From an uncultured Candidatus Saccharibacteria bacterium (GTDB lineage: Bacteria; Patescibacteriota; Minisyncoccia; Phycocordibacterales; UBA9973), in the NCBI GenBank assembly GCA_964404925.1, contig CAYOLW010000002.1, forward strand, positions 38,995-102,994: a stretch of 64,000 nucleotides of DNA, written 5' to 3'. A program made the position numbers and the translations under genes. Positions 11,930 to 59,023 of this stretch are shown here, piece by piece. Each line of letters starts with the position of its first letter. The first letter of the stretch is position 1. The notes below the pieces were generated by a model. That model was not told the DNA's origin and made no database searches. It worked only from the letters and a program-made list of their open reading frames with translations.

Positions 11930-12004
11930 TGGTGACCTCACGGAGAATCGAACTCCGATTAACGGATTGAAAACCCGTTGTCCTAACCGTTAGACGATGA
12001 GGCC
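11930..12004 (-). tRNA. tRNA-Glu (anticodon UUC), CCA encoded
   Basis: Reverse complement GGCCTCATCGTCTAACGGTTAGGACAACGGGTTTTCAATCCGTTAATCGGAGTTCGATTCTCCGTGAGGTCACCA, with anticodon loop TTTTCAA. Confidence 0.8.
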
Positions 12005-22103: not shown

Positions 22104-22475
22104 ATGAACAAAAAAGTTTTGGTTATTGAAGATGAAACAAGTTTAAGGTTTTTATTGTGCGAACGTTTAAGTTCTGAAAATTTTCAAATTTTTTCAGCCA
22201 GTAATGGGGTGGATGGTCTGTCTTTGGCTTTACAGGAAAAACCGAACCTAATTTTATTAGACATAATGATGCCAGGTATAGACGGTAACCATGTTTTAGA
22301 AGAGATCCGAAAAAATGATTGGGGTAAAAAAGCTCATGTTATAATATTAACTAATTTAAACACTAGTGAAGAGTTGGCCAAAGCTTTAGAACTAGAAGCT
22401 TTTGAATTTTATGTTAAATCTAATATCAAGATAGAAGATTTAATGCAAAAGATTATTCAATACTTAAAAAAATAA
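22104..22475 (+). CDS. single-domain response regulator (CheY-like receiver)
   Basis: VLVIEDE...LLDIMMPGIDG...K; 123 aa, no output domain. Confidence 0.8.
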   Translation: MNKKVLVIEDETSLRFLLCERLSSENFQIFSASNGVDGLSLALQEKPNLILLDIMMPGIDGNHVLEEIRKNDWGKKAHVIILTNLNTSEELAKALELEAFEFYVKSNIKIEDLMQKIIQYLKK

Positions 22476-35360: not shown

Positions 35361-35432
35361 GGCCTCATCGTCTAACGGTTAGGACAGCGGGTTCTCAATC
35401 CGCTAATCGGAGTTCGATTCTCCGTGAGGTCA
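35361..35432 (+). tRNA. tRNA-Glu (anticodon CUC)
   Basis: GGCCTCATCGTCTAACGGTTAGGACAGCGGGTTCTCAATCCGCTAATCGGAGTTCGATTCTCCGTGAGGTCA; anticodon loop TTCTCAA. Confidence 0.8.
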
Positions 35433-35623
35433 CATGAGCGAAAAGCAGCTAAACTGCTTTAGCTGCGAGCGAAGTGTGAAGACGGAGGCATAATTCGCCA
35501 GTAGGCGAATAGCCGAGTCCGGGGCTGGAAAATTTGCGAGTGACGACGAGTAAATTATTGTAGCTCACACTATTTAAGTACGCGAAGCGTTCAAAATTCG
35601 GATGTCCGACGTCCGAAAACATT

Positions 35624-36526: not shown

Positions 36527-37270
36527 ATGAAAAAAATAAACAAAACAAATACAGACATTGTGGCAATTAAAGAGCAAAATCAAGTCTCTGTCCTTAGAGA
36601 TCCAAATTTATTAAAACCATTTTTGGAACAACCAAAACTAAAGATTGCAGAATTTATTACAGGAGCTTTATCTAATGGTCTTTCAGATTGGACAAAGATA
36701 GGCGGTAGGTTGGTTCAAGGAGTAATAGTTGGAAATTTAATGACACAAGTTGGAAGAGAGATAAATAAACTCATAGATGAAGGAAAAATTAAAGAAAACT
36801 ATGCTGAAACAAAATATGGATTTAAATCATTAGAAGAATTATTGAAATTTATTGATAGTGAAGCACCCGACGAAGATAGATTTAATGCTGTGAAAGCGAT
36901 GTTTTTTGCTTTAAATAGCGTTGACGTGAAAAATTTAGGTGAAGAAATATTGCGTTATCAGTTATTTCATGTATCAACCAAATTGAGTTCATCTCAATTA
37001 TTAACTATGAGAGCTGCATATGAGTTTAAGAAAAATCATACACAACATAGTAGCGCTGAGGCGTGGTTGCAAGATATTTCAAAACAAATAGGTCATAACT
37101 CTAAAGGTTTAGTAGAAAATGATGAAACTGTTTTAGAACAGGAAAAATTAATTACAGGCAGGACATATAATGACAGAAGTGGAGTTAGGGGTCACAATGG
37201 CAGATTGAGTGATTTTGGAATTTCATTAGTTGAATATATATTAAAGTATGAAAATTATATTGAAGAATAA
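36527..37270 (+). CDS. hypothetical soluble protein, operon partner of the upstream membrane protein
   Basis: 247 aa, no recognisable motif; starts 7 nt after the upstream stop. Confidence 0.5.
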   Translation: MKKINKTNTDIVAIKEQNQVSVLRDPNLLKPFLEQPKLKIAEFITGALSNGLSDWTKIGGRLVQGVIVGNLMTQVGREINKLIDEGKIKENYAETKYGFKSLEELLKFIDSEAPDEDRFNAVKAMFFALNSVDVKNLGEEILRYQLFHVSTKLSSSQLLTMRAAYEFKKNHTQHSSAEAWLQDISKQIGHNSKGLVENDETVLEQEKLITGRTYNDRSGVRGHNGRLSDFGISLVEYILKYENYIEE

Positions 37271-37397
37271 AATAAGAGTACTCAAAAGTAAAAACTGGTT
37301 TGAAAACAGCGATACATCGTATACATAAGTTTTAAAAGCACAAAAGACTCTTTACTTGATTGAATACTTGGTTCCAATCTCATATAATTAAACTCAC

Positions 37398-37916
37398 ATG
37401 AACTTTATTGTTATAAACGGCCCATCTTGTGTAGGAAAAAGCACAACAATCAACCATTTAATGGAAACCAAGGACGGATATTTCCATTTGTCTTATGACA
37501 AAATTAAGAGAAATTTCTCTAGATATGAATCAGGCAAATATGTTAATGAAATCTTCAGCCTTTTGTTCGTAATGGAGAAAAACATTTGCGAACAAGGTTT
37601 AGATATTTTGACCGATATAGCTGTATGGCGGGAGAATAGAGAAAAAATAATTGAAATCGCAAAGCAGTATAACTATCAAATATTTGAAATTAATTTAGAA
37701 GCCCCATTTGATGTTGTGCTAGAAAGATTTAGAAATCGAGTAAACGAGTCCATAATAAATCCAGAGAAGAAACTCGCCAATACATCTGAAGTAAGACTAA
37801 AAGAAATGTTTGATATATACGAAGAAGGGAAGAATAAAAATGCCTTAACGTTGCGGACAGATCAATTAACTCCTCAAGAAATAAAAGAGCAGATTTTGGA
37901 TTATATAAATAGATAA
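37398..37916 (+). CDS. P-loop kinase-like protein (AAA_33/chloramphenicol-phosphotransferase-like fold)
   Basis: N-terminal Walker A INGPSCVGKST; 172 aa. Confidence 0.55.
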   Translation: MNFIVINGPSCVGKSTTINHLMETKDGYFHLSYDKIKRNFSRYESGKYVNEIFSLLFVMEKNICEQGLDILTDIAVWRENREKIIEIAKQYNYQIFEINLEAPFDVVLERFRNRVNESIINPEKKLANTSEVRLKEMFDIYEEGKNKNALTLRTDQLTPQEIKEQILDYINR

Positions 37917-38311
37917 TAAATACAAATATTCTATTTATCGCCATAAGTTCTAATCACACCTTTCAGCTATTGACTTTTCTATTATTTGTGTTAATCTGCA
38001 GTTAAATTTTAGCTCGTTGAAATAAGAAAGTGACGGGTTGGGGAATGATTCTAGCCTCTAATTATTTAGGGTTTTGAATCATTCACCTTAACTCTTCACT
38101 TAAACAAAACAAAAAAATCATGGAAGGAAAAACCATCCTTTGGATTATAGGAGGCCTCGTCCTGTATTTACTTGTTGGCTACATAAATGCATTGAGAGTC
38201 AGAAACTCTGCTCGGGGACTTTCAGCCACTCTTCAAATACCAATGAAACACGACAACTTAGACAAGACCATAATTTTTTTCTGGATTTTCAAAATGTTCA
38301 AATTTTAAACC

Positions 38312-38629
38312 GTGCTATCTATGGCTAACTTCTTTTTGTATTTGGACTGTCTTGTAACAAACAAGGTCTCTCGATTCTCGCTTCTTCTTTTCGCCTTAGG
38401 TTTTTTTCTGATGCGAAAGTATAATTGGATTTTTTTTCCGATTGTGCTTTTTGTAATCGGCGGAATCCTATTCTTTTTCACAGGTTTTGGGCTTAATAGT
38501 TACATTCTCTGTAAGAGAATGTGTAATATTGTTGAAAGTCGTGGATTTCTAGAGGTCTCTGAAGACGACATAGACACACCCTGTGCCTCAGCCGCCTTTA
38601 AGGTGGCATCAAGAAGATATAGTAAATAA
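38312..38629 (+). CDS. hypothetical membrane protein
   Basis: 105 aa with two or three hydrophobic helices; weak call. Confidence 0.3.
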   Translation: MLSMANFFLYLDCLVTNKVSRFSLLLFALGFFLMRKYNWIFFPIVLFVIGGILFFFTGFGLNSYILCKRMCNIVESRGFLEVSEDDIDTPCASAAFKVASRRYSK

Positions 38630-38857
38630 AATATAATCCAACGCATACCCGCTTTCACAAAACAGTTAATCTGCTAAGTGTTAGCGGGTTTTCTGTTTTT
38701 CGGTTATCTTGCATCTAAGCAAATATAATGTAGTATTCAATCGAATCAAATCGCGCCTGGCGAGTATCTCAGGTATCTCTATATATGAGAAAGCTCTTTA
38801 TACTTTTTTTATTTTTTTACCCTGAATTTATTTTTGGTCAGCTAACCCTGCAGAGTA

Positions 38858-39286
38858 TTGTCGCTAAATTCGAGACTGAAATGGACACTTGTTTATCTGA
38901 CTGTTTCAAATACAGGTTGGATAACATTTATAAGTTCACCCAGGATAGCTATAGGTGACCCTCATTTTTTTCCATTCCCTCACAAGACTATTTGGATCAG
39001 AGATTCTTCTGATTTGGAAATGCTAGTAGAGGAGGTGTCTCATTCATACCAATGGCAACAAAAAGGCGGTAAGTTTCGTTTAGTTACCGCTGCCAGTGGA
39101 CTATATCTAAAGGCTGCTTGGTTATCTGTTTGGAAAAAAGATGGTAAAAAATTAACACTTTGGCAAAGATATTCAGACTTTGCCTATGAGCCCATGCGGC
39201 ACAAGTTCTGGGCCTATGAATATGAGGCTCACAATGAAATTGTTCGAGATATGTGGAAGTATTTGGGTTGCAAGGACAGTTTTTGA
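38858..39286 (+). CDS. hypothetical protein, possibly the 3' part of a frameshifted secreted-protein gene
   Basis: TTG-initiated ORF. An ATG frame from 38786 encodes a signal-peptide-like MRKLFILFLFFYPEFIFG and stops at 38953 inside this ORF. Confidence 0.35.
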   Translation: MSLNSRLKWTLVYLTVSNTGWITFISSPRIAIGDPHFFPFPHKTIWIRDSSDLEMLVEEVSHSYQWQQKGGKFRLVTAASGLYLKAAWLSVWKKDGKKLTLWQRYSDFAYEPMRHKFWAYEYEAHNEIVRDMWKYLGCKDSF

Positions 39287-39298
39287 AAGTAAATCTTA

Positions 39299-39341
39299 AA
39301 AGACTATGCAGTAGTATGAACTAACGCATAGTCTTTTTTTA
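39299..39341 (+). terminator. rho-independent terminator
   Basis: AAGACTATGC-(16 nt loop)-GCATAGTCTTTTTTT. Confidence 0.75.
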
Positions 39342-39382
39342 TTGTTATAATATAGTCATTATTAATTATTAAATATAATTAT

Positions 39383-39547
39383 ATGGGAATAGAAGCAGGT
39401 TATTCAAAAAAGGGTACAGAGACATGTCCATCGTGCAATGGTGATGGTGTAATAAAAACACGTATTGAAAGCAATAGCGAACTACAATTCCGTACAGATA
39501 CATGTCCTACCTGTAAAGGTTCTGGGCAAGTACCAGCCAGGAAATAG
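39383..39547 (+). CDS. small zinc-ribbon protein (54 aa), hypothetical
   Basis: CPSCNG...CPTCKG, two CxxC pairs. Below the 60 aa ORF-track cutoff, so I translated it by hand. Confidence 0.35.
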   Translation: MGIEAGYSKKGTETCPSCNGDGVIKTRIESNSELQFRTDTCPTCKGSGQVPARK

Positions 39548-39575
39548 GTTTACTGATAAATAGTAATTTTTGCTA

Positions 39576-40011
39576 TAATACTGGCACAGATGCCGACCAA
39601 GAAAATTAAGAAAATATTAGTGGTAGAAGACGAGCGCCCAATGGCACATGCGCTTGATTTAAAGCTGACCCATGAAGGGTTCACTGTGACCGTAGCTTAT
39701 AACGGAGAAGAAGCACTAAAAGCTATGGAGGATACTGAATTTGATTTGGTTCTGCTTGATATCATGATGCCGAAGCTAGATGGATTTGGAGTCTTAGAAC
39801 AGATGAAGATTCTCAATTACAAATGGCCGGCGATAGTTTTGTCTAATCTGAGTCAGAGTGAAGACGAGAAAAGAGCTCGCGATTTGGGTGCAAATAAATT
39901 TTTTGTTAAATCCAATACTCCAATAATGAGAATTGTGGACTACGCAAAAGAAATTTTACGCGGGTAGTGTTATACTATTTAACAGATGAATATTGATGAG
40001 CAAAAATTAAT
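39576..40011 (+). repeat. upstream copy of the duplicated block (regulator promoter/5' end, then regulator 3' end plus pilB first 8 codons)
   Basis: 39576-39635 and 39862-40011 recur at 41765-41965. The 3' ~147 nt appear identical; the 5' ~60 nt carry 3 mismatches. Confidence 0.8.
39590..39967 (+). CDS. single-domain response regulator (CheY-like receiver)
   Basis: ILVVEDE...LLDIMMPKLDG...K; a paralogue of the receiver at 22104. Confidence 0.8.
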   Translation: MPTKKIKKILVVEDERPMAHALDLKLTHEGFTVTVAYNGEEALKAMEDTEFDLVLLDIMMPKLDGFGVLEQMKILNYKWPAIVLSNLSQSEDEKRARDLGANKFFVKSNTPIMRIVDYAKEILRG

Positions 40012-40016
40012 TTAAA
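39987..40016 (+). pseudogene. 8-codon pilB 5' stub (MNIDEQKL then I and a stop)
   Basis: Identical to the first 25 nt of the full pilB at 41941, then diverges into the insert. Confidence 0.5.
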
Positions 40017-40019
40017 TAT

Positions 40020-41054
40020 ATGGAAATCAATCAAGAAATAACAGAAGTAGAGCAGGGTGTTAAAGAGTATATAAAAAAAGATAATGGTTTTACTCTTATA
40101 GAGATAATCATGGTCATTGTTGTAATAGCGATTCTGGCAAGTTTGTCACTTGTGGTTTTTTCTGAAGCAAGGAAAAAAGCAAGAGACACACAACGTATAA
40201 CTGCTATTCAAAATATTAATAAAGCAATTCAAGTATATATCACTGATTATGGTCTAGCACCAGATCTTGGTGATCCTGCGTGCCTTGAAGTCCTTAACCC
40301 TAATCCATCTTGTGTTGCTGATATTATGAATCATCCAAATGAATGGACAGATTTAGCAAAAGCGCTAGAGCCATACATCCATATTTTGCCCACCGATCCT
40401 TGTGTGAATTGTGTAAGTGTTTTTACTAATGTTGCTTATGCACAAACAGGTTTAGATTATAACTTTGTTTATAAAGCACCAGCAGGTATAGCATATGATT
40501 TACAGCAAGCAGGTCTATCGTTAGATTTTTTGGATAGTAGTACATATCGAATATATGCTGATAAACTTGAGAAATTTGATGGAGCATTTGGGTATGGTTA
40601 TAATTTACATGGTTTTTTTGCTTTAAATAATGATGCTTCTGTATTAGATGAGTTATGTCCTTTAAGTTCAAAAGAGTATTGTGATTTTTGGCCTGATTTA
40701 GTTAAAAAAAATACCGAAATTTGCAATTCGGGCGATTTGGAAACATGCATTATGTTGGCGCGTCACGGATTGTTTGATGGATCAAATGTTTTTAAATGTG
40801 TATTTAATACAGAAGAACAATGCGCTGAATGGGATTCTTTTCTATATAAAAACATAACAATATGTAATGAGGGAGAAAGGTCTAGTTGTGATTTGTTAGC
40901 AAAATATGATTTATACCCACAGATTACAGAATGTCCTTTAAAGGAACGTGATTGCCTTGCTTGGTTTGAAGAAATACAAAATAATTTATTATTATGTGAT
41001 TTTAAAGAAGAGACAGCTTGTAATTGGTTGGATAAAAATAATGTTTTTAAATAA
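40020..41054 (+). CDS. prepilin-type N-terminal domain protein with Cys-rich tandem repeats
   Basis: Class III signal GFTLIEIIMVIVVIAILAS after a 23 aa leader. The C-terminal half carries repeated units of the type xIC-N-xGx...C. Confidence 0.6.
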   Translation: MEINQEITEVEQGVKEYIKKDNGFTLIEIIMVIVVIAILASLSLVVFSEARKKARDTQRITAIQNINKAIQVYITDYGLAPDLGDPACLEVLNPNPSCVADIMNHPNEWTDLAKALEPYIHILPTDPCVNCVSVFTNVAYAQTGLDYNFVYKAPAGIAYDLQQAGLSLDFLDSSTYRIYADKLEKFDGAFGYGYNLHGFFALNNDASVLDELCPLSSKEYCDFWPDLVKKNTEICNSGDLETCIMLARHGLFDGSNVFKCVFNTEEQCAEWDSFLYKNITICNEGERSSCDLLAKYDLYPQITECPLKERDCLAWFEEIQNNLLLCDFKEETACNWLDKNNVFK

Positions 41055-41764
41055 TACTGGTTTTTGGGCAATTGCTTCTGCAAGTAGTTGTAAAAAATTT
41101 TGAATTAGAAAAGGACGCTTTTTTATTTAATGGGTCTATCAATTGAGGAAGTATAGCCATGTATTCTTGATGAGCTTTAGTCGTGTCTAAAATTACTCCC
41201 TTATCTGCTGAACTTTTTACTTGGACTAGATATAGAGTATGAACTTGATTATTGTCTTCTACTATCCAAGGAAAGAAAGGTATCTTTGGCACTTTCTGTA
41301 CCACTTAATATCATTTTTACTTCTGCTTGTATTTTTTCAGAATTACTACCTAATTCTTCAGCTAAAACCTACTTAATAATAAAAGAAATGTTATTAATTG
41401 GTATATTATACTGAGTCACTATTCTTAGTAATGCATTTTGTAATCTTGCTTCTGGTAAGTAGAGAACTCTTCTTTTTAATTCTTCTCCTTAATAAACTCC
41501 AACTACTCGTCTTTGGGTGGCTGATATATCTCTTTCTGAACTTTCTCTTAGATAAATTTTAATTAAGTTTTTGATTTTATCATTTGCTGGACCAGCATGT
41601 ATCTCGTTTTTAACAGGAACAGTCGCTGTAAAAGCAGGTTGTCCTCTGTCTCAACCCTTCTCAAAAATCAATTTAAAAAAATTATTTTCTGCCCCCCATA
41701 ACTAAACTGTAGCATTTTGGCTTTATATTTTAATAGAACTTTTTTTAAGTTTAAGTACGGGTTA
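41055..41764 (-). pseudogene. decayed gene of unknown identity
   Basis: Minus-strand translation gives three or more long fragments joined only across stops and frameshifts (for example DRGQPAFTATVPVKNEIHAGPANDKIKNLIKIYLRESSERDISATQRRVVGVY). The only intact ORF is the 85 aa piece at 41047..41304. Confidence 0.35.
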
Positions 41765-41965
41765 TAATACTGGCACATATGCCGACCAAGAAAACTAAGA
41801 AAATATTAGTGGTAGAATACGAGAAAAGAGCTCGCGATTTGGGTGCAAATAAATTTTTTGTTAAATCCAATACTCCAATAATGAGAATTGTGGACTACGC
41901 AAAAGAAATTTTACGCGGGTAGTGTTATACTATTTAACAGATGAATATTGATGAGCAAAAATTAA
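41765..41965 (+). repeat. downstream copy of the duplicated block (regulator remnant plus the true pilB start)
   Basis: Direct repeat of 39576-40011 with a ~225 nt internal deletion whose ends sit at a 9-nt microhomology (GAAGACGAG/GAATACGAG). Confidence 0.8.
41779..41922 (+). pseudogene. in-frame internally deleted response-regulator remnant (47 codons: MPTKKTKKILVVEYEKRARDLGANKFFVKSNTPIMRIVDYAKEILRG)
   Basis: The 5' 16 codons and 3' 31 codons of the regulator at 39590 are fused; the phosphoacceptor region is missing. Confidence 0.6.
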
Positions 41966-43599
41966 AAGACATACTGCTCCGCCAGAACTATATTACTGAA
42001 AAAGATTTCACCACTGCCGCTTTAAATGCAAAGAAAGAAAAGATTTCACCAGTCAGATACCTATTAAACCAAGGAATAATTTCTGAAGGTTTAATAGCTC
42101 AGGCATTAGCCGAGTCTTTTGGTGTTCCTTATTCAGATTTAAAGTTAAGAGAACCCTCCAAGGACGTAGTAAATCTAATTCCAGAGAAATTTGCTCGTGA
42201 AAAGAGGGTAGTATGTGTGTCTTCTAATAAAGACCAAGTAGTTGTAGCCACAGACAATCCATTGCAGCCAAAATTAGCTGAAGAATTAAATTCTATTTTG
42301 CATAATAGTAATATTTCTATTACGTACGCACTGCCTGAATCCATAGATCAAATTCTACGTTTTTATCAAAAATCATTAGATACCAGATTTTCTAAAATAA
42401 TTGCTGCTGGTAATAGGGTTGCTCCAGAAATATTAGAAGAAATATTTGAAGATGCGTACGCTTTTTCAGCTTCAGACATACATTTTGAACCTAATGCTAA
42501 AGACATCTCGGTTCGTTTCAGAGTGGACGGAGTATTGCAAGACGGGGGTAAACTTCCAAAAGAATTTTACGAAAATATTTTAAACAGAATCAAAGTTGAA
42601 AGCCGACTGCGCATAGACGAGCATTTTGCTGCACAAGATGGATCTATGCATTACGAATCAGGTACAGATGCAGAGAAAAAGTTTTTTGATTTACGTACAT
42701 CTATTGTACCGACGGTGGAAGGGGAAAAAGTAGTGTTGCGTGTTTTGTCTTCGTATGTAGAAGGTTTGTCTTTGGCTGATTTAGGTTTTAGTAAAGAAGA
42801 CGGAGAAAAGATTGAGAAAGCAGCGCATAAACCCTTCGGCATGATATTGGTTACTGGACCAACTGGTTCTGGCAAGACGACTACTCTGTACGGAGTGCTC
42901 AAAATATTAAATACTAGGGAAGTAAACGTCACCACCATCGAGGACCCTGTCGAATATAAAGTATCCGGTATAAATCAAATTCAGACTAATCTAGAGACAA
43001 ATTTAACCTTTGCTAAAGGTTTGCGTTCTATCGTTCGCCAAGACCCAGACATCATATTGGTAGGTGAAATCAGAGATGAGGAAACAGCCGAAATAGCGGT
43101 GAACGCTGCACTGACCGGGCATTTGTTGTTGTCGACTTTTCACGCCAATGATGCTTCTACTGCTATACCTCGACTACTTGATATGGGTATTGAACCTTTC
43201 TTGCTTTCATCAACCCTTGAATTAATTGTTGCTCAGCGTTTGGTACGCAAGATATGCGAGGCTTGTCGTTATAGCACCGAATTGTTAGTGAGTGATTTAG
43301 CAAAAAAATACAAAAATGTTCACGGTTTTTCTGGCAAGAATATTACCTTGTATCAAGGCAAGGGTTGTGACACATGTGCTGGTACTGGGTTTAAGGGACG
43401 TACAGCTATCTTTGAATTTATTGAGATAACTCCAGCCATGTCTGAATTAATGCTCAAGTCCCCGTCTTCGATTGAGATTCAAAAATTAGCCAAAAAAGAA
43501 GGAACTAAATCAATGTTTGAAGATGGGCTTGAGAAGGTTAAATCCGGTGTGACGACATTAGACGAATTACTACGGGTGGCACCTCCGCCAATCGAATAA
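41941..43599 (+). CDS. pilB: type IV pilus assembly ATPase PilB (GspE family)
   Basis: T2SSE N-terminal domain, Walker A GPTGSGKTTTLY, Asp/His boxes, and tetracysteine motif CEAC...CDTC. Confidence 0.9.
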   Translation: MNIDEQKLKDILLRQNYITEKDFTTAALNAKKEKISPVRYLLNQGIISEGLIAQALAESFGVPYSDLKLREPSKDVVNLIPEKFAREKRVVCVSSNKDQVVVATDNPLQPKLAEELNSILHNSNISITYALPESIDQILRFYQKSLDTRFSKIIAAGNRVAPEILEEIFEDAYAFSASDIHFEPNAKDISVRFRVDGVLQDGGKLPKEFYENILNRIKVESRLRIDEHFAAQDGSMHYESGTDAEKKFFDLRTSIVPTVEGEKVVLRVLSSYVEGLSLADLGFSKEDGEKIEKAAHKPFGMILVTGPTGSGKTTTLYGVLKILNTREVNVTTIEDPVEYKVSGINQIQTNLETNLTFAKGLRSIVRQDPDIILVGEIRDEETAEIAVNAALTGHLLLSTFHANDASTAIPRLLDMGIEPFLLSSTLELIVAQRLVRKICEACRYSTELLVSDLAKKYKNVHGFSGKNITLYQGKGCDTCAGTGFKGRTAIFEFIEITPAMSELMLKSPSSIEIQKLAKKEGTKSMFEDGLEKVKSGVTTLDELLRVAPPPIE

Positions 43600-47504: not shown

Positions 47505-47981
47505 ATGATGACAAATTATAAGAAAGGTTTTACATTATTAGAAGTTTTGCTTGTGGTCGCCGCTATTGGTATTTTAGCCGGTATAGTTATTGTTGCACTT
47601 AACCCAAATAAGCAACTTGGTGATACTAGGAATGCTCAACGCAGGGCTGACGTGAATACAATATTAAATGCAGTTTACCAGTATGCTATAGATAATAGTG
47701 GTAATTTGCCAGCTGGCATTGACTCGACTGCTGGTTCATCTCAGGTTTTAGGTACAACTGGTTCTGGACTTGATTCTACTTGTACAGCAACCACTACCGT
47801 TGCTGCGGGGCTTGATCTGTCCGCAGTATTGGTGCCTACCTATATCGTAGGTATTCCTATGGATCCAAAGACTGGTTCAGCAGGTAATACAGATTACTAC
47901 ATTAACAAAGATGCAAACGGAAGAATAACTGTTGGTGCCTGTGACCCAGAACAATCTGCTGTAATTAGCGTAACCCGCTAA
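47505..47981 (+). CDS. type IV pilin (PilA-like)
   Basis: MMTNYKKG/FTLLEVLLVVAAIGILAGIV with conserved Glu+5. The longer TTG-initiated frame was rejected. Confidence 0.65.
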   Translation: MMTNYKKGFTLLEVLLVVAAIGILAGIVIVALNPNKQLGDTRNAQRRADVNTILNAVYQYAIDNSGNLPAGIDSTAGSSQVLGTTGSGLDSTCTATTTVAAGLDLSAVLVPTYIVGIPMDPKTGSAGNTDYYINKDANGRITVGACDPEQSAVISVTR

Positions 47982-49807
47982 TGAATATTGTTTCCACAAT
48001 ACTTTTCATTCTCCTTGGTATAGCAGTGCTTGCCAAGGAGAGGGAACGTGGAGGGACTGCACGTTTAATCGGTTTTCTCGTGTCATTAGTTTCCTTGTCT
48101 TTGTTAATAATGCCAAGGAGTTTTTTCGCTTTGTATAATATTGAAGGTTTTTTATCTATACCTTCTTTTTTAGAATCTATCAGTTCCTTTTTGCTTGGAA
48201 CAATTTTTTTACTACCACACAAGAGTGCTTTCCGTAGGTACTATTATTTAGAATTTGCTACAGGCTTGTCTGTATTGTTATCTGCCTTATATATGGTGGG
48301 TTATTTTTTTCCAGCGACAGCTATAACTAATTATAGTATTTTTAACGATAAGGAAATTATTTTTGTTTTTATAAATATATTATTGACTTTTGTCGTTTTC
48401 ATTAATTTTCGGTCAAAATATGAATCCAAGTTCTTGTTTAATAAAAAAGTCTTCACGTTGGCGATACTTTTTGGCGGAGTTCTTTTTTCTCTTAGTTATG
48501 CATCTTATTTGAGTAACTTACTCAGCAATTCAACCCCAAATTTAATACCGCTGCTTAACTATATTCCAATTGTTATAGTAGTACTCGGAGTACTGCTCAG
48601 TGTTCTTTTTATTCTAATGTTGTATGCTTTTTCTTCTCTGCGCGAGAGAACCGTATTGTATGCTAATGATGTCACCAAAGGCTTGCGTCAGGCCAAGGCT
48701 AAAGACGAGGCACTACTGCTGTCTATCGGTGAGGGTCTGGTTGCTACCGGTAAAGATGGAAACATAATTTTCGTTAATCGTGCTTTTGAAAGTATGCTTG
48801 GTTGGAAAGAAGAAGAAGTACAAGGAAAACTTTTTCTAAACCTGGTCCATATGTTTGACGAGAACGGTAAGGAAATTCAAAAAGACAACCGTCCTTTTTA
48901 TAGCGCACTGCAGACTAAAAATTCAAAAGATTTTAAATCTAAAACAACAACTAATATGTATTATCGACACCGAGATGGTAACATTTTCCCGGTGGCTATT
49001 ACGATTTCTCCAATTGTTGTGGAAGGTGAGATGATGGGTGTCGTAGAAGTGTTTAGAGATATAACCAGAGAAAAAGAAATAGACAAGGAAAAGACTGAAT
49101 TCGTTTCTCTGGCTTCGCATCAATTGCGAACACCTCTATCATCAGTGAATTGGTACACTGAGATGCTTTTAGCAGGAGATGCTGGTAAATTAACTAAAAA
49201 GCAAAAAGAGTATGCAGATGAAATATTCCAAGGTACACAAAGGATGGTTAGACTCGTAAACGACCTATTGAATGTATCTCGGTTAGAACTGGGTACATTC
49301 TCTGTGAATCCAGAGACAGTGGATGTGGTGGCAGCAGCCTTCGATGCTATTGATGAACAAAAACAACATATTAAATTGAAGAAAATAAAAGTGACAACTG
49401 ATTTCCCTGATGAGAGGCCATTAGAAATGGAAGCAGATCCTAAATTACTGCATATGATTTTCCAGAATTTATTATCAAATTCAATAAAATATACTGGAGA
49501 AAAAGGGCATATCAATTTGGCAGTTTTTAAAAATGGGAAAGAGATACTTATTGAAGTTTCAGATAATGGTATCGGTATTCCAAAAAATGAACAAAGTAAA
49601 ATTTTCACTAAATTATTCCGTGCTGACAACGTAAAGGAACAAGACATGGAAGGCACAGGACTCGGACTGTATATTATTAAATCTATTGTTGAGAAGTCCG
49701 GCGGTTCAATCCGTTTTGAATCAACAGAAGGTGAGGGAACTAAATTTATTGTAGATTTCCCAGAAGGAAATATGAAAAAAAGAGAAGGTAGTAGAGAACT
49801 TAGCTAA
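47981..49807 (+). CDS. membrane sensor histidine kinase (multi-TM, PAS, HisKA, HATPase_c)
   Basis: 6-7 N-terminal TM helices, PAS region, H-box FVSLASHQLRTPLSSVNWYTEMLL, G-boxes DNGIGIP and GTGLGL. A paralogue of the kinase at 19814. Confidence 0.8.
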   Translation: MNIVSTILFILLGIAVLAKERERGGTARLIGFLVSLVSLSLLIMPRSFFALYNIEGFLSIPSFLESISSFLLGTIFLLPHKSAFRRYYYLEFATGLSVLLSALYMVGYFFPATAITNYSIFNDKEIIFVFINILLTFVVFINFRSKYESKFLFNKKVFTLAILFGGVLFSLSYASYLSNLLSNSTPNLIPLLNYIPIVIVVLGVLLSVLFILMLYAFSSLRERTVLYANDVTKGLRQAKAKDEALLLSIGEGLVATGKDGNIIFVNRAFESMLGWKEEEVQGKLFLNLVHMFDENGKEIQKDNRPFYSALQTKNSKDFKSKTTTNMYYRHRDGNIFPVAITISPIVVEGEMMGVVEVFRDITREKEIDKEKTEFVSLASHQLRTPLSSVNWYTEMLLAGDAGKLTKKQKEYADEIFQGTQRMVRLVNDLLNVSRLELGTFSVNPETVDVVAAAFDAIDEQKQHIKLKKIKVTTDFPDERPLEMEADPKLLHMIFQNLLSNSIKYTGEKGHINLAVFKNGKEILIEVSDNGIGIPKNEQSKIFTKLFRADNVKEQDMEGTGLGLYIIKSIVEKSGGSIRFESTEGEGTKFIVDFPEGNMKKREGSRELS

Positions 49808-57235: not shown

Positions 57236-57259
57236 TAAATCTGATATAATAGTTTAAAT

Positions 57260-59023
57260 ATGAAAGAGGAAATTCAAAAGTTTTTTAAGGGTGATATAGA
57301 TGACCGAGAAGATACATTAGAAAAATACTCACACGATGCGAGTGTTTTTTTGGTACGACCACAGATAGTGCTTTTCCCAAAAGATTCAGAAGATGTAAAA
57401 AATCTTGTGAAGTGGGCGGGTGAGAATAAATCTAGATATCCGCATTTGTCTATTACTGCGCGCGCGGCGGGTACATGTATGTCTGGTGGCTCAATCAATG
57501 AATCTATAATCTTAGATTTTACAAAGTACATGAATAAGTTTGTGAACTACGAGGAGGACACACCTGACTCACTGAAAGCTTTCGCTCAAGGTGGTATTGG
57601 TAAAAGTGTTCACGATGGTTCTAAACACACCATGATTCCATACATGACTGTGCAGCCTGGTATGTATTATCGAGATTTTGAAAAACTTACCTTAGAAAAA
57701 GGTATGATTTTGCCTTGTTATACCGCGTCCAAGACTCTAAATGCTATGGGCGGAATGTTTGGTAATAATTCAGCGGGTGAGAGAACTCTACGTTTTGGTA
57801 AGACGGAGGAATATGTAGCTCAGTCAAAAATAGTATTTGCTGATGGTAATGAATACACAGTAAAACCTCTTTCTAAACAGGAATTAGAAGCCAAAATAAA
57901 CCAGCAGGATTTCGAAGGAGGAGTGTATCGAGAAATATATAATCTGATTATGCAAAACAAGGAGGATATAAAATCTGCTAAACCTAATGTACACAAAAAT
58001 TCTTCTGGTTACACTATTTGGAATGTATTGGATACCGAAGGTGCCAGACCGGAGAAAGAGTATTTTGATTTAAACAGGTTACTGGTTGGTTCACAGGGCA
58101 CACTGGGTATTGTTACTGAGATTACTTTTCGTCTAGTTCCAGAATTACAATCCAGAAGGCTGCTGGTGCTTTTCTTGAGAGACATGACTTTGCTGCCAAA
58201 CATCGTGAATAAACTACTGATACATAATCCAGAAACTATTGAGACATACGATGACAAAACCTTCTTTTTGGTTCTAAGATACATCCGTAGCTTTGCTAAA
58301 TTGCTCGGTGTAGGTAATTTCTTAAAACTCATATTTAGTTTTGGTCCAGAAGCCTGGATGACACTTCGTCATGGTTTCCCAAGACTTATTTTTTTGGTTG
58401 AATTTGCTGGCAGTACGCAGGCTGAAGCAGATGAAGCAGCTAAGAAAGCCCTCGAGAGTGTCCAAAGTTTTCATAAAATTGGTTCTCGACTAACTCGTAA
58501 TGAGTTTGAATCTAAAAAGTATTGGACCATACGCAGAGAAGCTTTTAATTTAATTCGTTATCATCTAAAGACGGTAAAGTCTAAACCATTCATTGATGAT
58601 GTTATTGTCCGTCCTGAAAATTTACCAGAATTTATGCCTGAAATTTATAAAATTCTTGAAGAATATAAAGATGAAATGACTTTTGCTGTTGGTGGTCATG
58701 CTGGTGATGGTAACCTACATATCTATACACTAGTTAATCCAAGTGATCCAAATCTTAAGCAAATGGTGCTTGACGTGTCCAACAGAGTATATACCTTGGT
58801 TGCTAAATTTGGAGGTTCTATTACAGCAGAACACAATGATGGGCTTATTCGCACACCATACCTGAATAAAATATTCAGTTCAAAAATTATAGATATATTC
58901 AAGCAAATAAAGAATGTTTTTGATTCTAAACACGTCTTCAATCCTGGTAAAAAGGTTCCAGAGGAAGGTGTTGGTCCTGGAACCAAGGAATATATGGTTG
59001 CTCATATACCAAACACAAAGTAG
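57260..59023 (+). CDS. FAD-linked oxidase (GlcD/D-lactate dehydrogenase-like, FAD_binding_4 plus C-terminal domain)
   Basis: RAAGTCMSGGS FAD-binding motif and C-terminal GGSITAEHNDGL. Confidence 0.75.
   Translation: MKEEIQKFFKGDIDDREDTLEKYSHDASVFLVRPQIVLFPKDSEDVKNLVKWAGENKSRYPHLSITARAAGTCMSGGSINESIILDFTKYMNKFVNYEEDTPDSLKAFAQGGIGKSVHDGSKHTMIPYMTVQPGMYYRDFEKLTLEKGMILPCYTASKTLNAMGGMFGNNSAGERTLRFGKTEEYVAQSKIVFADGNEYTVKPLSKQELEAKINQQDFEGGVYREIYNLIMQNKEDIKSAKPNVHKNSSGYTIWNVLDTEGARPEKEYFDLNRLLVGSQGTLGIVTEITFRLVPELQSRRLLVLFLRDMTLLPNIVNKLLIHNPETIETYDDKTFFLVLRYIRSFAKLLGVGNFLKLIFSFGPEAWMTLRHGFPRLIFLVEFAGSTQAEADEAAKKALESVQSFHKIGSRLTRNEFESKKYWTIRREAFNLIRYHLKTVKSKPFIDDVIVRPENLPEFMPEIYKILEEYKDEMTFAVGGHAGDGNLHIYTLVNPSDPNLKQMVLDVSNRVYTLVAKFGGSITAEHNDGLIRTPYLNKIFSSKIIDIFKQIKNVFDSKHVFNPGKKVPEEGVGPGTKEYMVAHIPNTK

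What the first reader, a model, noticed from the sequence alone, without database searches (positions are those of the whole stretch)
39576..41965. Insertion at the response-regulator/pilB junction flanked by ~200 bp direct repeats, with an in-frame-deleted regulator copy and a pilB stub
The block made of the regulator promoter/5' end plus the regulator 3' end and pilB codons 1-8 occurs twice (39576-40011 and 41765-41965); the 3' ~147 nt appear identical. In the downstream copy the regulator has lost ~225 nt between a 9-nt microhomology (GAAGACGAG/GAATACGAG), leaving an in-frame 47-codon remnant, and is followed by the intact pilB. In the upstream copy the regulator is intact but pilB is cut after codon 8 by a 1.75 kb insert that carries a prepilin-like gene and a decayed ORF. 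The near-identity of the repeats implies a recent event. Homologous recombination between them would excise the pilin-like cassette and restore a single regulator-pilB junction. This could be a phase- or cassette-variation mechanism for a pilus component, or the footprint of a Campbell-type integration.
Basis: seen in the sequence. Interest (0 to 1): 0.7.

Follow-up and report, generated by a model that had tools for sequence, protein, structure and literature searches.

The report
Duplicated regulator–pilB junction flanking a pilin gene
At the head of a type IV pilus operon in an uncultured Patescibacteria genome, a 437-bp piece (regulator gene plus the start of pilB) is present twice around a 1.75-kb stretch carrying an extra pilin gene; this looks like the scar of an ordinary recombination event, and nothing found here shows a programmed switch.

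Summary
Window 39574-40010 (regulator promoter, intact 125-aa response regulator, pilB start signals and codons 1-8) recurs at 41763-41965. The last 147 nt are identical. The downstream copy lacks 234 nt, removed between the only two GAAGACGAG 9-mers in the window, leaving a 47-codon remnant ahead of intact pilB.

Comparison with the nearest relatives (Logan contigs L161/L162) changes part of the interpretation. They carry a 347-aa gene (minus strand), then the regulator, then pilB, with no insertion. L161 aligns without a break across the supposed right end of the insert, so that junction is a pre-existing adjacency.

The pilin gene is intact and belongs to a small Patescibacteria family of modular pilins with Cys-rich C-terminal repeats.

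My best reading is that two alternative versions of a variable island were joined in tandem by one homologous exchange in the regulator's 5' end and one illegitimate join at pilB nucleotide 25. A slippage deletion in one regulator copy followed.

I found no recombinase, silent pilin cassette, inverted repeat or recurrence in about 160 related loci, so nothing supports a phase- or cassette-variation device. Recombination between the repeats would delete the pilin gene, but population heterogeneity could not be tested. Interest is low to moderate.

The parts
39300..39342 (+). Hairpin and T-run after orf142. Its end (39340) is the left limit of collinearity with relative L161.
   Evidence: Read directly from the sequence. 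The L161 alignment ends at L161 1789 = window 39340.
39383..39547 (+). zf54: a 54-aa CXXCXGXG zinc-finger ORF, absent from L161/L162. It is the upstream neighbour of the intact regulator copy.
   Evidence: Pfam DnaJ_CXXCXGXG E=2e-8. No homologue in the other loci. Present in the independent Logan contig L163.
39574..40010 (+). Upstream copy of the duplicated segment (437 nt). It contains the TGCTATAAT promoter-like box, the intact regulator, the TGTTATACT box, and the pilB ATG plus 8 codons.
39590..39967 (+). Intact CheY-like single-domain response regulator (125 aa).
   Evidence: Pfam Response_reg E=3.2e-23. 92% aa identity to the L161 regulator but only 43% identity at 4-fold sites, which indicates purifying selection.
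39626..39634 (+). First GAAGACGAG 9-mer (codons E-D-E): left end of the deletion seen in the other copy.
39860..39868 (+). Second GAAGACGAG 9-mer, in the same reading frame: right end of the deletion.
39986..40015 (+). pilB stub converted into a 9-codon mini-ORF (MNIDEQKLI, then stop). It ends 4 nt before the pilin start codon.
   Evidence: Read directly from the sequence. Translational coupling to the pilin gene is inferred.
40020..41054 (+). pilinX: an intact 344-aa prepilin with a G|FTLIE cleavage site and three Cys-rich C-terminal repeats.
   Evidence: N_methyl E=1e-6. Full HMMER scan found 22 relatives. All family-invariant residues are present. GC 32%, GC3 19%.
41118..41700 (-). Pseudogene of the 347-aa gene that lies upstream of the regulator in L161/L162. 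It has a frameshift just after the ATG, in-frame stops and a 92-nt deletion, and has lost the C-terminal 147 codons.
41763..41965 (+). Downstream copy of the duplicated segment (203 nt after the 234-nt deletion). It sits in the same context as the regulator of L161/L162.
41779..41922 (+). 47-codon regulator remnant: residues 1-13, a D14Y change, then residues 92-125. The phospho-acceptor region is gone.
   Evidence: (no Pfam hit).
41923..41931 (+). TGTTATACT extended -10-like box, 9 nt upstream of the pilB ATG. Its twin is at 39968-39976.
   Evidence: Read from the sequence. The same box-to-ATG layout recurs at many genes in this Shine-Dalgarno-less window. Promoter function is inferred.
41941..43599 (+). 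Intact pilB (T2SSE/MshEN assembly ATPase), followed by pilC and the minor pilin genes.
   Evidence: Pfam T2SSE E=4e-120. Conserved gene order in relatives.

Best explanation
This is a small fixed tandem merodiploid at the head of a Patescibacteria type IV pilus operon. A 437-bp segment is present twice in direct orientation around 1.75 kb of DNA. The segment holds the regulator promoter, the regulator gene, pilB's own -10 box and start, and pilB codons 1-8.

The most likely origin (inferred) is that two alternative versions of the variable island upstream of the operon were joined in tandem. One version is zf54-regulator-pilB. The other is pilinX-(347-aa gene)-regulator-pilB, whose right part matches the arrangement in relatives L161/L162.

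The joining needed one homologous exchange near the 5' end of the regulator and one illegitimate join at pilB nucleotide 25. This is the kind of product expected from DNA uptake with one-sided homology, or from unequal exchange between sister chromosomes bridged by donor DNA.

With two regulator copies present, one became dispensable. It lost 234 nt by slippage or recombination between two in-frame GAAGACGAG repeats and picked up a D14Y change. The 347-aa gene decayed.

Functional consequence (inferred): the pilin gene now sits directly behind a copy of the regulator and pilB expression signals. The pilB stub is a 9-codon mini-ORF ending 4 nt before the pilin ATG. The second copy of the same signals keeps pilB expressed.

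RecA-type recombination between the 151-nt repeats would delete the pilin gene and restore zf54-regulator-pilB. That would be a one-way loss, not a designed switch.
For: The repeat structure and the deletion endpoints are exact.

Regulator-pilB adjacency is the conserved state: 41 related loci have the regulator less than 100 bp upstream of pilB. The closest relatives L081, L161 and L162 have no insertion.

L161 aligns continuously over window 41429-41822. That span covers the pseudogene, the intergenic promoter region and the first 60 nt of the deleted copy. Upstream of TATAAT the upstream copy is unrelated to L161.

Divergence from L161 is mosaic. At 4-fold sites pilB, pilC and the intact regulator are 41-43% identical, whereas the kinase-like gene (kin172) in the island is 93% identical. 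The pseudogene and promoter tract is 87-94% identical at the nucleotide level over its ungapped alignment windows; windows spanning the indels score lower. That tract was therefore exchanged between lineages recently, while both regulator copies are of window-lineage type.

The three differences between the copies (41778, 41795, 41818) all lie in the first 56 of 203 nt. If they were spread uniformly, the probability of this is about 0.02 (my arithmetic). T at 41778 is shared with L161. This fits an exchange point inside the 5' end of the regulator, with both copies being recipient DNA downstream of it.

pilinX and the pseudogene tract share low GC (31-32%), against 37-39% for the core genes.

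pilinX is intact and conserved at every family-invariant position. Its relatives sit in scattered, unrelated contexts, consistent with a gene that moves.

The window has almost no Shine-Dalgarno motifs, and -10-like boxes sit roughly 3-10 nt before many start codons, including the regulator and pilB.

Merodiploids formed by unequal interchromatid integration of partly repeated donor DNA are documented in S. pneumoniae (PMC3784515).
Against: The order of events cannot be fixed without a closer relative. No genome carrying zf54-regulator-pilB alone, or pilinX next to an intact 347-aa gene, was found.

The evidence from differences between the copies rests on only three sites.

The low-identity orf142 block lies between two high-identity patches, so more than one exchange happened in this island. 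Simple parsimony arguments are therefore weak.

Only one of the four junctions has independent assembly support.

Natural competence and RecA activity in this organism are assumed, not shown. The promoter, leaderless-start and coupling statements are read from sequence only.
Confidence: 0.5

Rival explanations
1. Intragenomic duplicative insertion. The ancestor already had zf54-pilinX-(347-aa gene)-regulator-pilB. A 437-bp copy of the regulator-pilB head was inserted 2.2 kb upstream, between zf54 and pilinX, by template switching or illegitimate recombination. The original regulator copy then decayed.
For: The downstream (deleted) copy is the one in the context seen in L161/L162. The copies are at least 98% identical. 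Removing the upstream copy would leave a plausible 35-nt zf54-pilinX intergenic spacer (sequence). Other genes in the region are decaying: orf142 has an 8-nt frameshift and the 347-aa gene is a pseudogene.
Against: It needs two illegitimate junctions that show essentially no microhomology (sequence). It leaves unexplained why the differences between copies cluster at the 5' end. It also requires the site shared with L161 (T at 41778) to have mutated in the functional copy. It does not account for the compositional and identity boundary between the pilinX/pseudogene tract and the core-like zf54/regulator block.
Confidence: 0.25
2. Assembly chimera. Two co-existing strain haplotypes were stitched together through the shared 147-nt identical sequence, so no single genome has both copies.
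For: The source is a metagenome-assembled contig: the proteins map to one NCBI contig of 103,274 bp. A 147-nt exact repeat is longer than common assembly k-mers. The independent Logan contig L163 stops at 39735, before the repeat.
Against: The 40010/40011 junction (pilB codon 8 joined to the pilin upstream region) must exist on some real molecule. That molecule would already carry the regulator 3' end plus the pilB stub upstream of pilinX, which is the repeat structure itself. The two copies differ by 3 substitutions and a 234-nt deletion, which is not what a simple repeat expansion produces. L163 is 100% identical over 2.9 kb, including the left junction.
Confidence: 0.08
3. Recurrent RecA-dependent switch. 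The direct repeats are maintained so that part of the population deletes, and possibly regains, the pilin cassette, toggling a pilus tip component.
For: 151-nt near-perfect direct repeats are adequate substrates for homologous recombination. The predicted product is a clean regulator-pilB operon. The 147-nt perfect identity could reflect ongoing gene conversion. RecA-resolved merodiploids used as bet-hedging are known in B. thailandensis (PMC9946442).
Against: Deletion would be irreversible without a maintained circular product. There is no recombinase domain in the 19 neighbouring ORFs scanned, no silent pilin copy and no inverted repeats. The arrangement is unique among about 160 pilB loci. 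The associated gene decay (deleted regulator, pseudogene) points to an accident followed by erosion. No alternative junction was found in public data.
Confidence: 0.07
4. Classical Campbell integration. A circular plasmid, phage or excised element carrying pilinX plus a cloned regulator-pilB fragment integrated by a single crossover.
For: The topology (a repeat, the insert, then the same repeat) is the Campbell product.
Against: The insert has no replication, integrase or phage gene. There is no match in the phage, plasmid or viral collections. A Campbell crossover between diverged copies predicts differences on both sides of the crossover, but all differences lie at the 5' end. Part of the insert is chromosomal DNA that neighbours the regulator in the nearest relatives.
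Confidence: 0.05

Closest known systems
Transformation-generated merodiploids / tandem duplications in Streptococcus pneumoniae (Johnston et al. 2013, PMC3784515)
   Same: Both show a direct duplication bordered by repeats. In both, one copy of a gene stays intact while the other is altered. [quoted passage not shown] The duplicated gene is freed from selection and then altered.
   Different: Here the duplicated unit is 437 bp around a 1.75-kb insert, not 100-900 kb. The repeats are the regulator-pilB segment itself, not IS remnants. One of the joins is illegitimate. Transformation in this organism is assumed, not shown.
Homology-facilitated illegitimate recombination during natural transformation (a concept used in e.g. 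PMC3410848 and PMC8116780; the original Acinetobacter work is recalled from my own knowledge)
   Same: Foreign DNA is anchored by homology on one side (the regulator 5' end) and joined without homology on the other (pilB nucleotide 25). This brings in a new gene, pilinX.
   Different: The usual products are insertions with a loss of recipient DNA, not a duplication of the anchor. No microhomology can be demonstrated at the illegitimate join because the donor sequence is unknown.
IS-mediated, RecA-dependent duplication as bet-hedging in Burkholderia thailandensis (PMC9946442)
   Same: Both involve direct repeats that RecA could use to resolve a duplication, which could create population heterogeneity.
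   Different: There, the process is reversible copy-number change of a 208.6-kb region between IS elements, with demonstrated heterogeneity and phenotypes. Here, resolution would delete unique DNA, and no heterogeneity has been shown.
Neisseria pilE/pilS pilin antigenic variation
   Same: Both involve a pilin gene and homologous recombination near a pilus locus.
   Different: There are no silent partial pilin cassettes here. The repeats are regulator and pilB sequence, not pilin sequence. Nothing indicates gene conversion of pilin segments.
Modular type IV pilins, such as S. sanguinis PilB (PMC8179133) and Saccharibacteria PilX1/PilX2 with extra C-terminal domains (PMC11623550)
   Same: pilinX has a canonical prepilin N-terminus and globular head, followed by an added C-terminal module of three Cys-rich repeats.
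   Different: The added module is a different, uncharacterised Cys-repeat array (C-x6-7-C-x2-W-x9-10-C-x7-C-x2-L). No usable structure was obtained (pLDDT 42).

Membership tests
Homology-driven duplicative integration / tandem merodiploid | Two direct copies of one chromosomal segment flank the extra DNA. | tested here: met
   39574-40010 and 41763-41965; 147 nt identical and 3 differences in total.
Homology-driven duplicative integration / tandem merodiploid | The single-copy arrangement exists in relatives. | tested here: met
   The regulator lies directly upstream of pilB in 41 loci and in the closest relatives L081, L161 and L162.
Homology-driven duplicative integration / tandem merodiploid | One boundary of the extra DNA is an existing (homologous) adjacency and the other is a novel join. 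| tested here: met
   L161 aligns across 41762/41763. Nothing aligns across 40010/40011.
Homology-driven duplicative integration / tandem merodiploid | Parental haplotypes or resolution products are detectable in the population. | not testable with these tools
   No read data are available. An exact-match scan of metagenome contigs found nothing. Logan contig L163 covers only the left junction.
Campbell integration of a plasmid, phage or integrative element | The insert carries replication, integrase or phage functions, or matches a known element. | tested here: not met
   Pfam and PADLOC scans found only a pilin motif and no mobile-element functions. No phage, plasmid or viral contig match. 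No tRNA-derived att repeat.
Transposon or IS insertion | A transposase, terminal inverted repeats and a short target-site duplication (typically 2-14 bp, from my own knowledge). | tested here: not met
   The repeat is 203/437 bp. There are no matching inverted repeats at the ends and no transposase domain.
Pilin cassette (antigenic) variation, Neisseria type | Silent partial copies homologous to the expressed pilin gene. | tested here: not met
   pilinX DNA and protein have no second copy in the 64-kb window. The only other hit is a 25%-identical N-terminal match to a different pilin.
Site-specific phase-variation switch (invertible or excisable element) | A dedicated recombinase gene next to the element, and inverted or att-type repeats. 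| tested here: not met
   None of the 19 ORFs scanned between 32.5 and 49.8 kb had a recombinase domain. The repeats are direct copies of coding sequence.
CheY-like receiver (response regulator) | A complete receiver domain including the phospho-acceptor Asp. | tested here: met
   This holds for the upstream copy: Response_reg E=3e-23 over residues 9-109. The 47-aa downstream remnant gives no hit and lacks residues 15-91.
Type IV pilin | An N-terminal prepilin cleavage/methylation motif and a hydrophobic helix. | tested here: met
   N_methyl E=1.3e-6. G23-F24-T25 and E28 are invariant across the family alignment.

The most novel reading that the evidence does not exclude
The merodiploid may be kept as a RecA-resolvable device in an episymbiotic bacterium. 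Cells would stochastically delete the cassette through the 151-nt repeats. This would switch off a Cys-repeat tip pilin, possibly a host-binding adhesin, while restoring a clean regulator-pilB operon. The cassette could then be regained by DNA uptake through the same pilus. That would amount to a population-level on/off system for host attachment, built from the operon's own head.
Probability: 0.06. Interest if true: 0.6.

Novelty: new member of a known kind. Interest (0 to 1): 0.25.

Why it matters
Type IV pili are central to how Patescibacteria attach to hosts and probably take up DNA, yet how their pilin repertoires change is poorly documented. This locus is a clean, datable example of a new modular pilin gene wired into the head of the pilus operon. 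It was done by duplicating the operon's regulator and pilB expression signals, after which one regulator copy eroded.

The locus also shows that the island upstream of the operon is exchanged between lineages whose core genes are saturated at synonymous sites.

This is useful as a case study of genome plasticity in reduced, uncultured bacteria. It does not reveal a new kind of mechanism.

Tried and rejected
- Exact look-ups of the window's regulator, pilin and PilB in the contig index found nothing.
- An exact 49-nt probe of the repeat found nothing in metagenome contigs.
- The closest PilB in species-representative genomes is 61% identical, and 70% in metagenomes. No strain-level comparison came from those scans. 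The useful relatives, L161/L162, came from the regulator's 90% cluster.
- The word-indexed protein search made pilinX look like an orphan. The full HMMER scan corrected this.
- The 347-aa protein has no Pfam or PADLOC family. Its few homologues lie in unrelated contexts, so its function remains unknown.
- L081's 306-aa upstream gene is not homologous to the 347-aa gene.
- A search for similar regulator-pilB head duplications in all fetched loci found only tandem repeats upstream of pilB. None extends more than 2 nt past the pilB start.
- Phage, plasmid and viral searches with the novel DNA and with pilinX were negative.
- Rfam found only the tRNA. The promoter/terminator scan was no better than shuffled sequence. 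Tandem-repeat finding was uninformative.
- The single-sequence AlphaFold model of pilinX was unusable (pLDDT 42), so no fold search was run.
- A 30-nt, 73% resemblance between the end of pilinX (41031-41060) and the region before the upstream copy (39555-39584) (D8) was judged to be within the AT-rich background.
Full report
**Observation**

The repeats are real and exact. The repeat finder, a pairwise alignment and self-BLAST show two direct repeat blocks:
- 39860-40010 = 41815-41965: 151 nt with one mismatch, so 147 nt are identical.
- 39574-39634 = 41763-41823: 61 nt with three mismatches.

The two blocks overlap by 9 nt in the downstream copy. That copy is therefore the 437-nt upstream segment minus 234 nt. 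The missing piece lies between two GAAGACGAG 9-mers (39626-39634 and 39860-39868). These are the only two copies of that 9-mer in the 64-kb window. Both encode E-D-E in the same frame, which explains why the remnant stays in frame.

The ORFs are as follows:
- The upstream copy carries an intact CheY-like receiver (125 aa, Response_reg E=3e-23).
- The downstream copy carries a 47-codon remnant with no domain hit.
- Intact pilB (T2SSE E=4e-120) follows the downstream copy.
- After the upstream copy, pilB identity stops after the first base of codon 9.
- Between the copies lie a 344-aa prepilin gene (40020-41054, called pilinX here) and a decayed minus-strand ORF.

**Context**

The window belongs to a Patescibacteria (CPR) bacterium. 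All close PilB relatives come from such genomes.

The gene order regulator-pilB-pilC-pilin-(LVIVD pilin) is conserved. In 41 fetched loci the regulator ends less than 100 bp before pilB. A PAS histidine kinase closes the operon. A tRNA-Glu gene at 35361-35433 lies upstream. The 70%-PilB relative L081 is collinear with the window from that tRNA to 53.5 kb, except for the stretch between the tRNA and the regulator. That stretch is therefore a variable island.

**Key comparison**

The regulator's 90% cluster contained one other protein. It led to two Logan contigs, L161 and L162. Their order is:

kinase-like gene (kin172), small ORFs, 171-aa gene, terminator, 347-aa gene (minus strand), regulator, pilB. 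There is no insertion.

BLAST and alignments give these correspondences:
- L161 1-1789 matches window 37557-39340.
- L161 2251-2978 matches window 41118-41822, with two indels.
- L161 3205 onward matches window 41815 onward.

Three conclusions follow.
It has a frameshift after the ATG, in-frame stops and a 92-nt deletion, and has lost 147 C-terminal codons.
- The L161 alignment runs without a break across 41762/41763, the supposed right end of the insert. Upstream of the shared TATAAT, the downstream copy is nearly identical to L161, while the upstream copy is unrelated.
- DNA with no counterpart in L161 spans 39341-41117. It holds a 54-aa zinc-finger ORF (zf54), the intact regulator copy with the pilB stub, and pilinX.

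**Mosaic divergence**

At 4-fold degenerate sites, pilB, pilC and the intact regulator are only 41-43% identical between the window and L161. This is essentially saturated. The kinase-like gene (kin172) in the island is 93% identical, and one 150-nt stretch of the island is 100% identical.

The pseudogene and promoter tract (41118 to about 41786) is 87-94% identical over its ungapped alignment windows, although it is non-functional. That tract has therefore been shared between the two lineages recently. Both regulator copies are of the window lineage.

The 171-aa-gene block (38757-39340) shows core-like divergence. pilinX and the pseudogene tract share low GC (31-32%; pilinX GC3 19%), against 37-39% for the core genes.

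The copies differ at only three sites (41778, 41795, 41818). All three lie within the first 56 of 203 nt. The T at 41778 is the L161 state.

**Best explanation**

These facts fit best with two island haplotypes having been joined in tandem:
- a native zf54-regulator-pilB haplotype, and
- a pilinX-347-regulator-pilB haplotype, whose right part has the L161 type of arrangement.

The joining needed one homologous exchange in the first few dozen nucleotides of the regulator segment and one illegitimate join at pilB nucleotide 25. Downstream of the exchange point both copies would be recipient DNA, which explains the 147-nt perfect identity.

This is the outcome expected from one-sided-homology integration, or from interchromatid bridging by donor DNA as shown for pneumococcal merodiploids (PMC3784515). 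Once duplicated, one regulator copy was free to decay. It lost 234 nt between the 9-mers and changed a conserved acidic residue (D14Y).

I rate this model at about 0.5. The order of events is inferred, and no parental haplotype was recovered.

**Rival explanations**

- The main rival (0.25) is an intragenomic copy of the 437-nt segment inserted between zf54 and pilinX.
- An assembly chimera (0.08) is unlikely. The 40010/40011 junction already implies the repeat structure on a real molecule. An independent Logan contig (L163) is 100% identical across 36799-39735. However, three of the four junctions lack independent support.
- A classical plasmid or phage Campbell event (0.05) has no support.

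**Function (inferred)**

The window has almost no Shine-Dalgarno motifs. Many genes have a -10-like box roughly 3-10 nt before the ATG. The regulator has TGCTATAAT-N10-ATG and pilB has TGTTATACT-N9-ATG. Both modules lie inside the duplicated segment.

In the upstream copy the pilB module now starts a 9-codon mini-ORF (39986-40015) that stops 4 nt before the pilinX ATG. pilinX has thereby been placed behind the operon's own expression signals, and the downstream copy keeps pilB served by the same signals.

**pilinX**

The word-indexed search made pilinX look like an orphan. A full HMMER scan found 22 relatives. The family alignment shows that pilinX keeps every invariant residue.

The family has a conserved pilin head followed by a variable number of Cys-rich repeats: three in pilinX and more than ten in P0029. 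Members lie in scattered contexts and not near pilB. One sits inside a ribosomal-protein operon and another between dus and an AAA/RuvB-like gene. This fits a gene that relocates.

**Is it a switch?**

Recombination between the 151-nt repeats would delete the cassette and restore zf54-regulator-pilB. Recombination between the 61-nt repeats would leave only the deleted regulator.

Nothing else points to a designed system:
- no recombinase domain in the 19 neighbouring ORFs scanned against Pfam,
- no matching inverted repeats,
- no silent pilin copy,
- no RNA element,
- no recurrence of such a duplication at pilB in about 160 related loci.

Surrounding genes are eroding: the 347-aa pseudogene, the deleted regulator, and an 8-nt frameshift in the 171-aa gene. 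Population heterogeneity could not be tested.

**Verdict**

The interpretation as a recombination footprint is supported, with the corrections given above. The phase- or cassette-variation idea is unsupported. This is a new example of a known kind of event, and its interest is low to moderate.

Noticed in passing
window-wide, e.g. 39571-39592, 41923-41943, 37380-37400, 57240-57262: Almost none of 40 gene starts has a Shine-Dalgarno motif. Many have a TATAAT-like box roughly 3-10 nt before the ATG, which suggests widespread leaderless or very short-leader mRNAs in this genome.
   Followed up: partly
window 37557-38756 and 41118-41786, compared with L161: Patches of the island between tRNA-Glu and the pilus operon are 86-100% identical to a relative whose core genes are only 41-43% identical at 4-fold sites. 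One 150-nt stretch is 100% identical. This implies recent inter-lineage DNA exchange among Patescibacteria.
   Followed up: partly
window 38785-39286: The ortholog of L161's 171-aa signal-peptide protein carries an 8-nt deletion near 38933. This splits it into a 57-aa ORF and a 142-aa ORF in another frame. The same sequence is present in the independent Logan contig L163, so it is not an assembly error.
   Followed up: partly
L168 6749-9210 and L169 1021-3482: A pilinX-family pilin, a second pilin and three small ORFs sit inside a ribosomal-protein operon, between the L5 and S8 genes, in another Patescibacteria genome. This is an unusual place for pilus genes.
   Followed up: no
pilinX residues about 216-344 (window 40665-41051); P0029: The pilin family carries tandem Cys-rich repeats (about 40 aa each, C-x6-7-C-x2-W-x9-10-C-x7-C-x2-L) in variable number: 0-3 in most members and more than 10 in P0029. 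This is an uncharacterised module that may be an adhesin tip.
   Followed up: partly
window 47981-49807 and 22104-22475: A PAS-HisKA-HATPase histidine kinase closes the pilus operon and is the likely partner of the regulator at its head. A second single-domain receiver paralog (39% identical) lies at 22104-22475.
   Followed up: no
L049 8433-9860, L061 8060-9465, L070 7992-9654, L154 7112-8504: Several Patescibacteria loci have tandem direct repeats (86-98% identical, about 570-690 nt) immediately upstream of pilB. I did not annotate their content; duplicated pilin genes are my guess. If so, the pilB-proximal position may be a hotspot for pilin gene turnover.
   Followed up: no
window 11930-12004 and 35361-35433: The two tRNA-Glu genes (anticodons ttc and ctc) share an identical 24-nt 3' arm. 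No partial tRNA repeat marks an integrase-type island boundary.
   Followed up: yes
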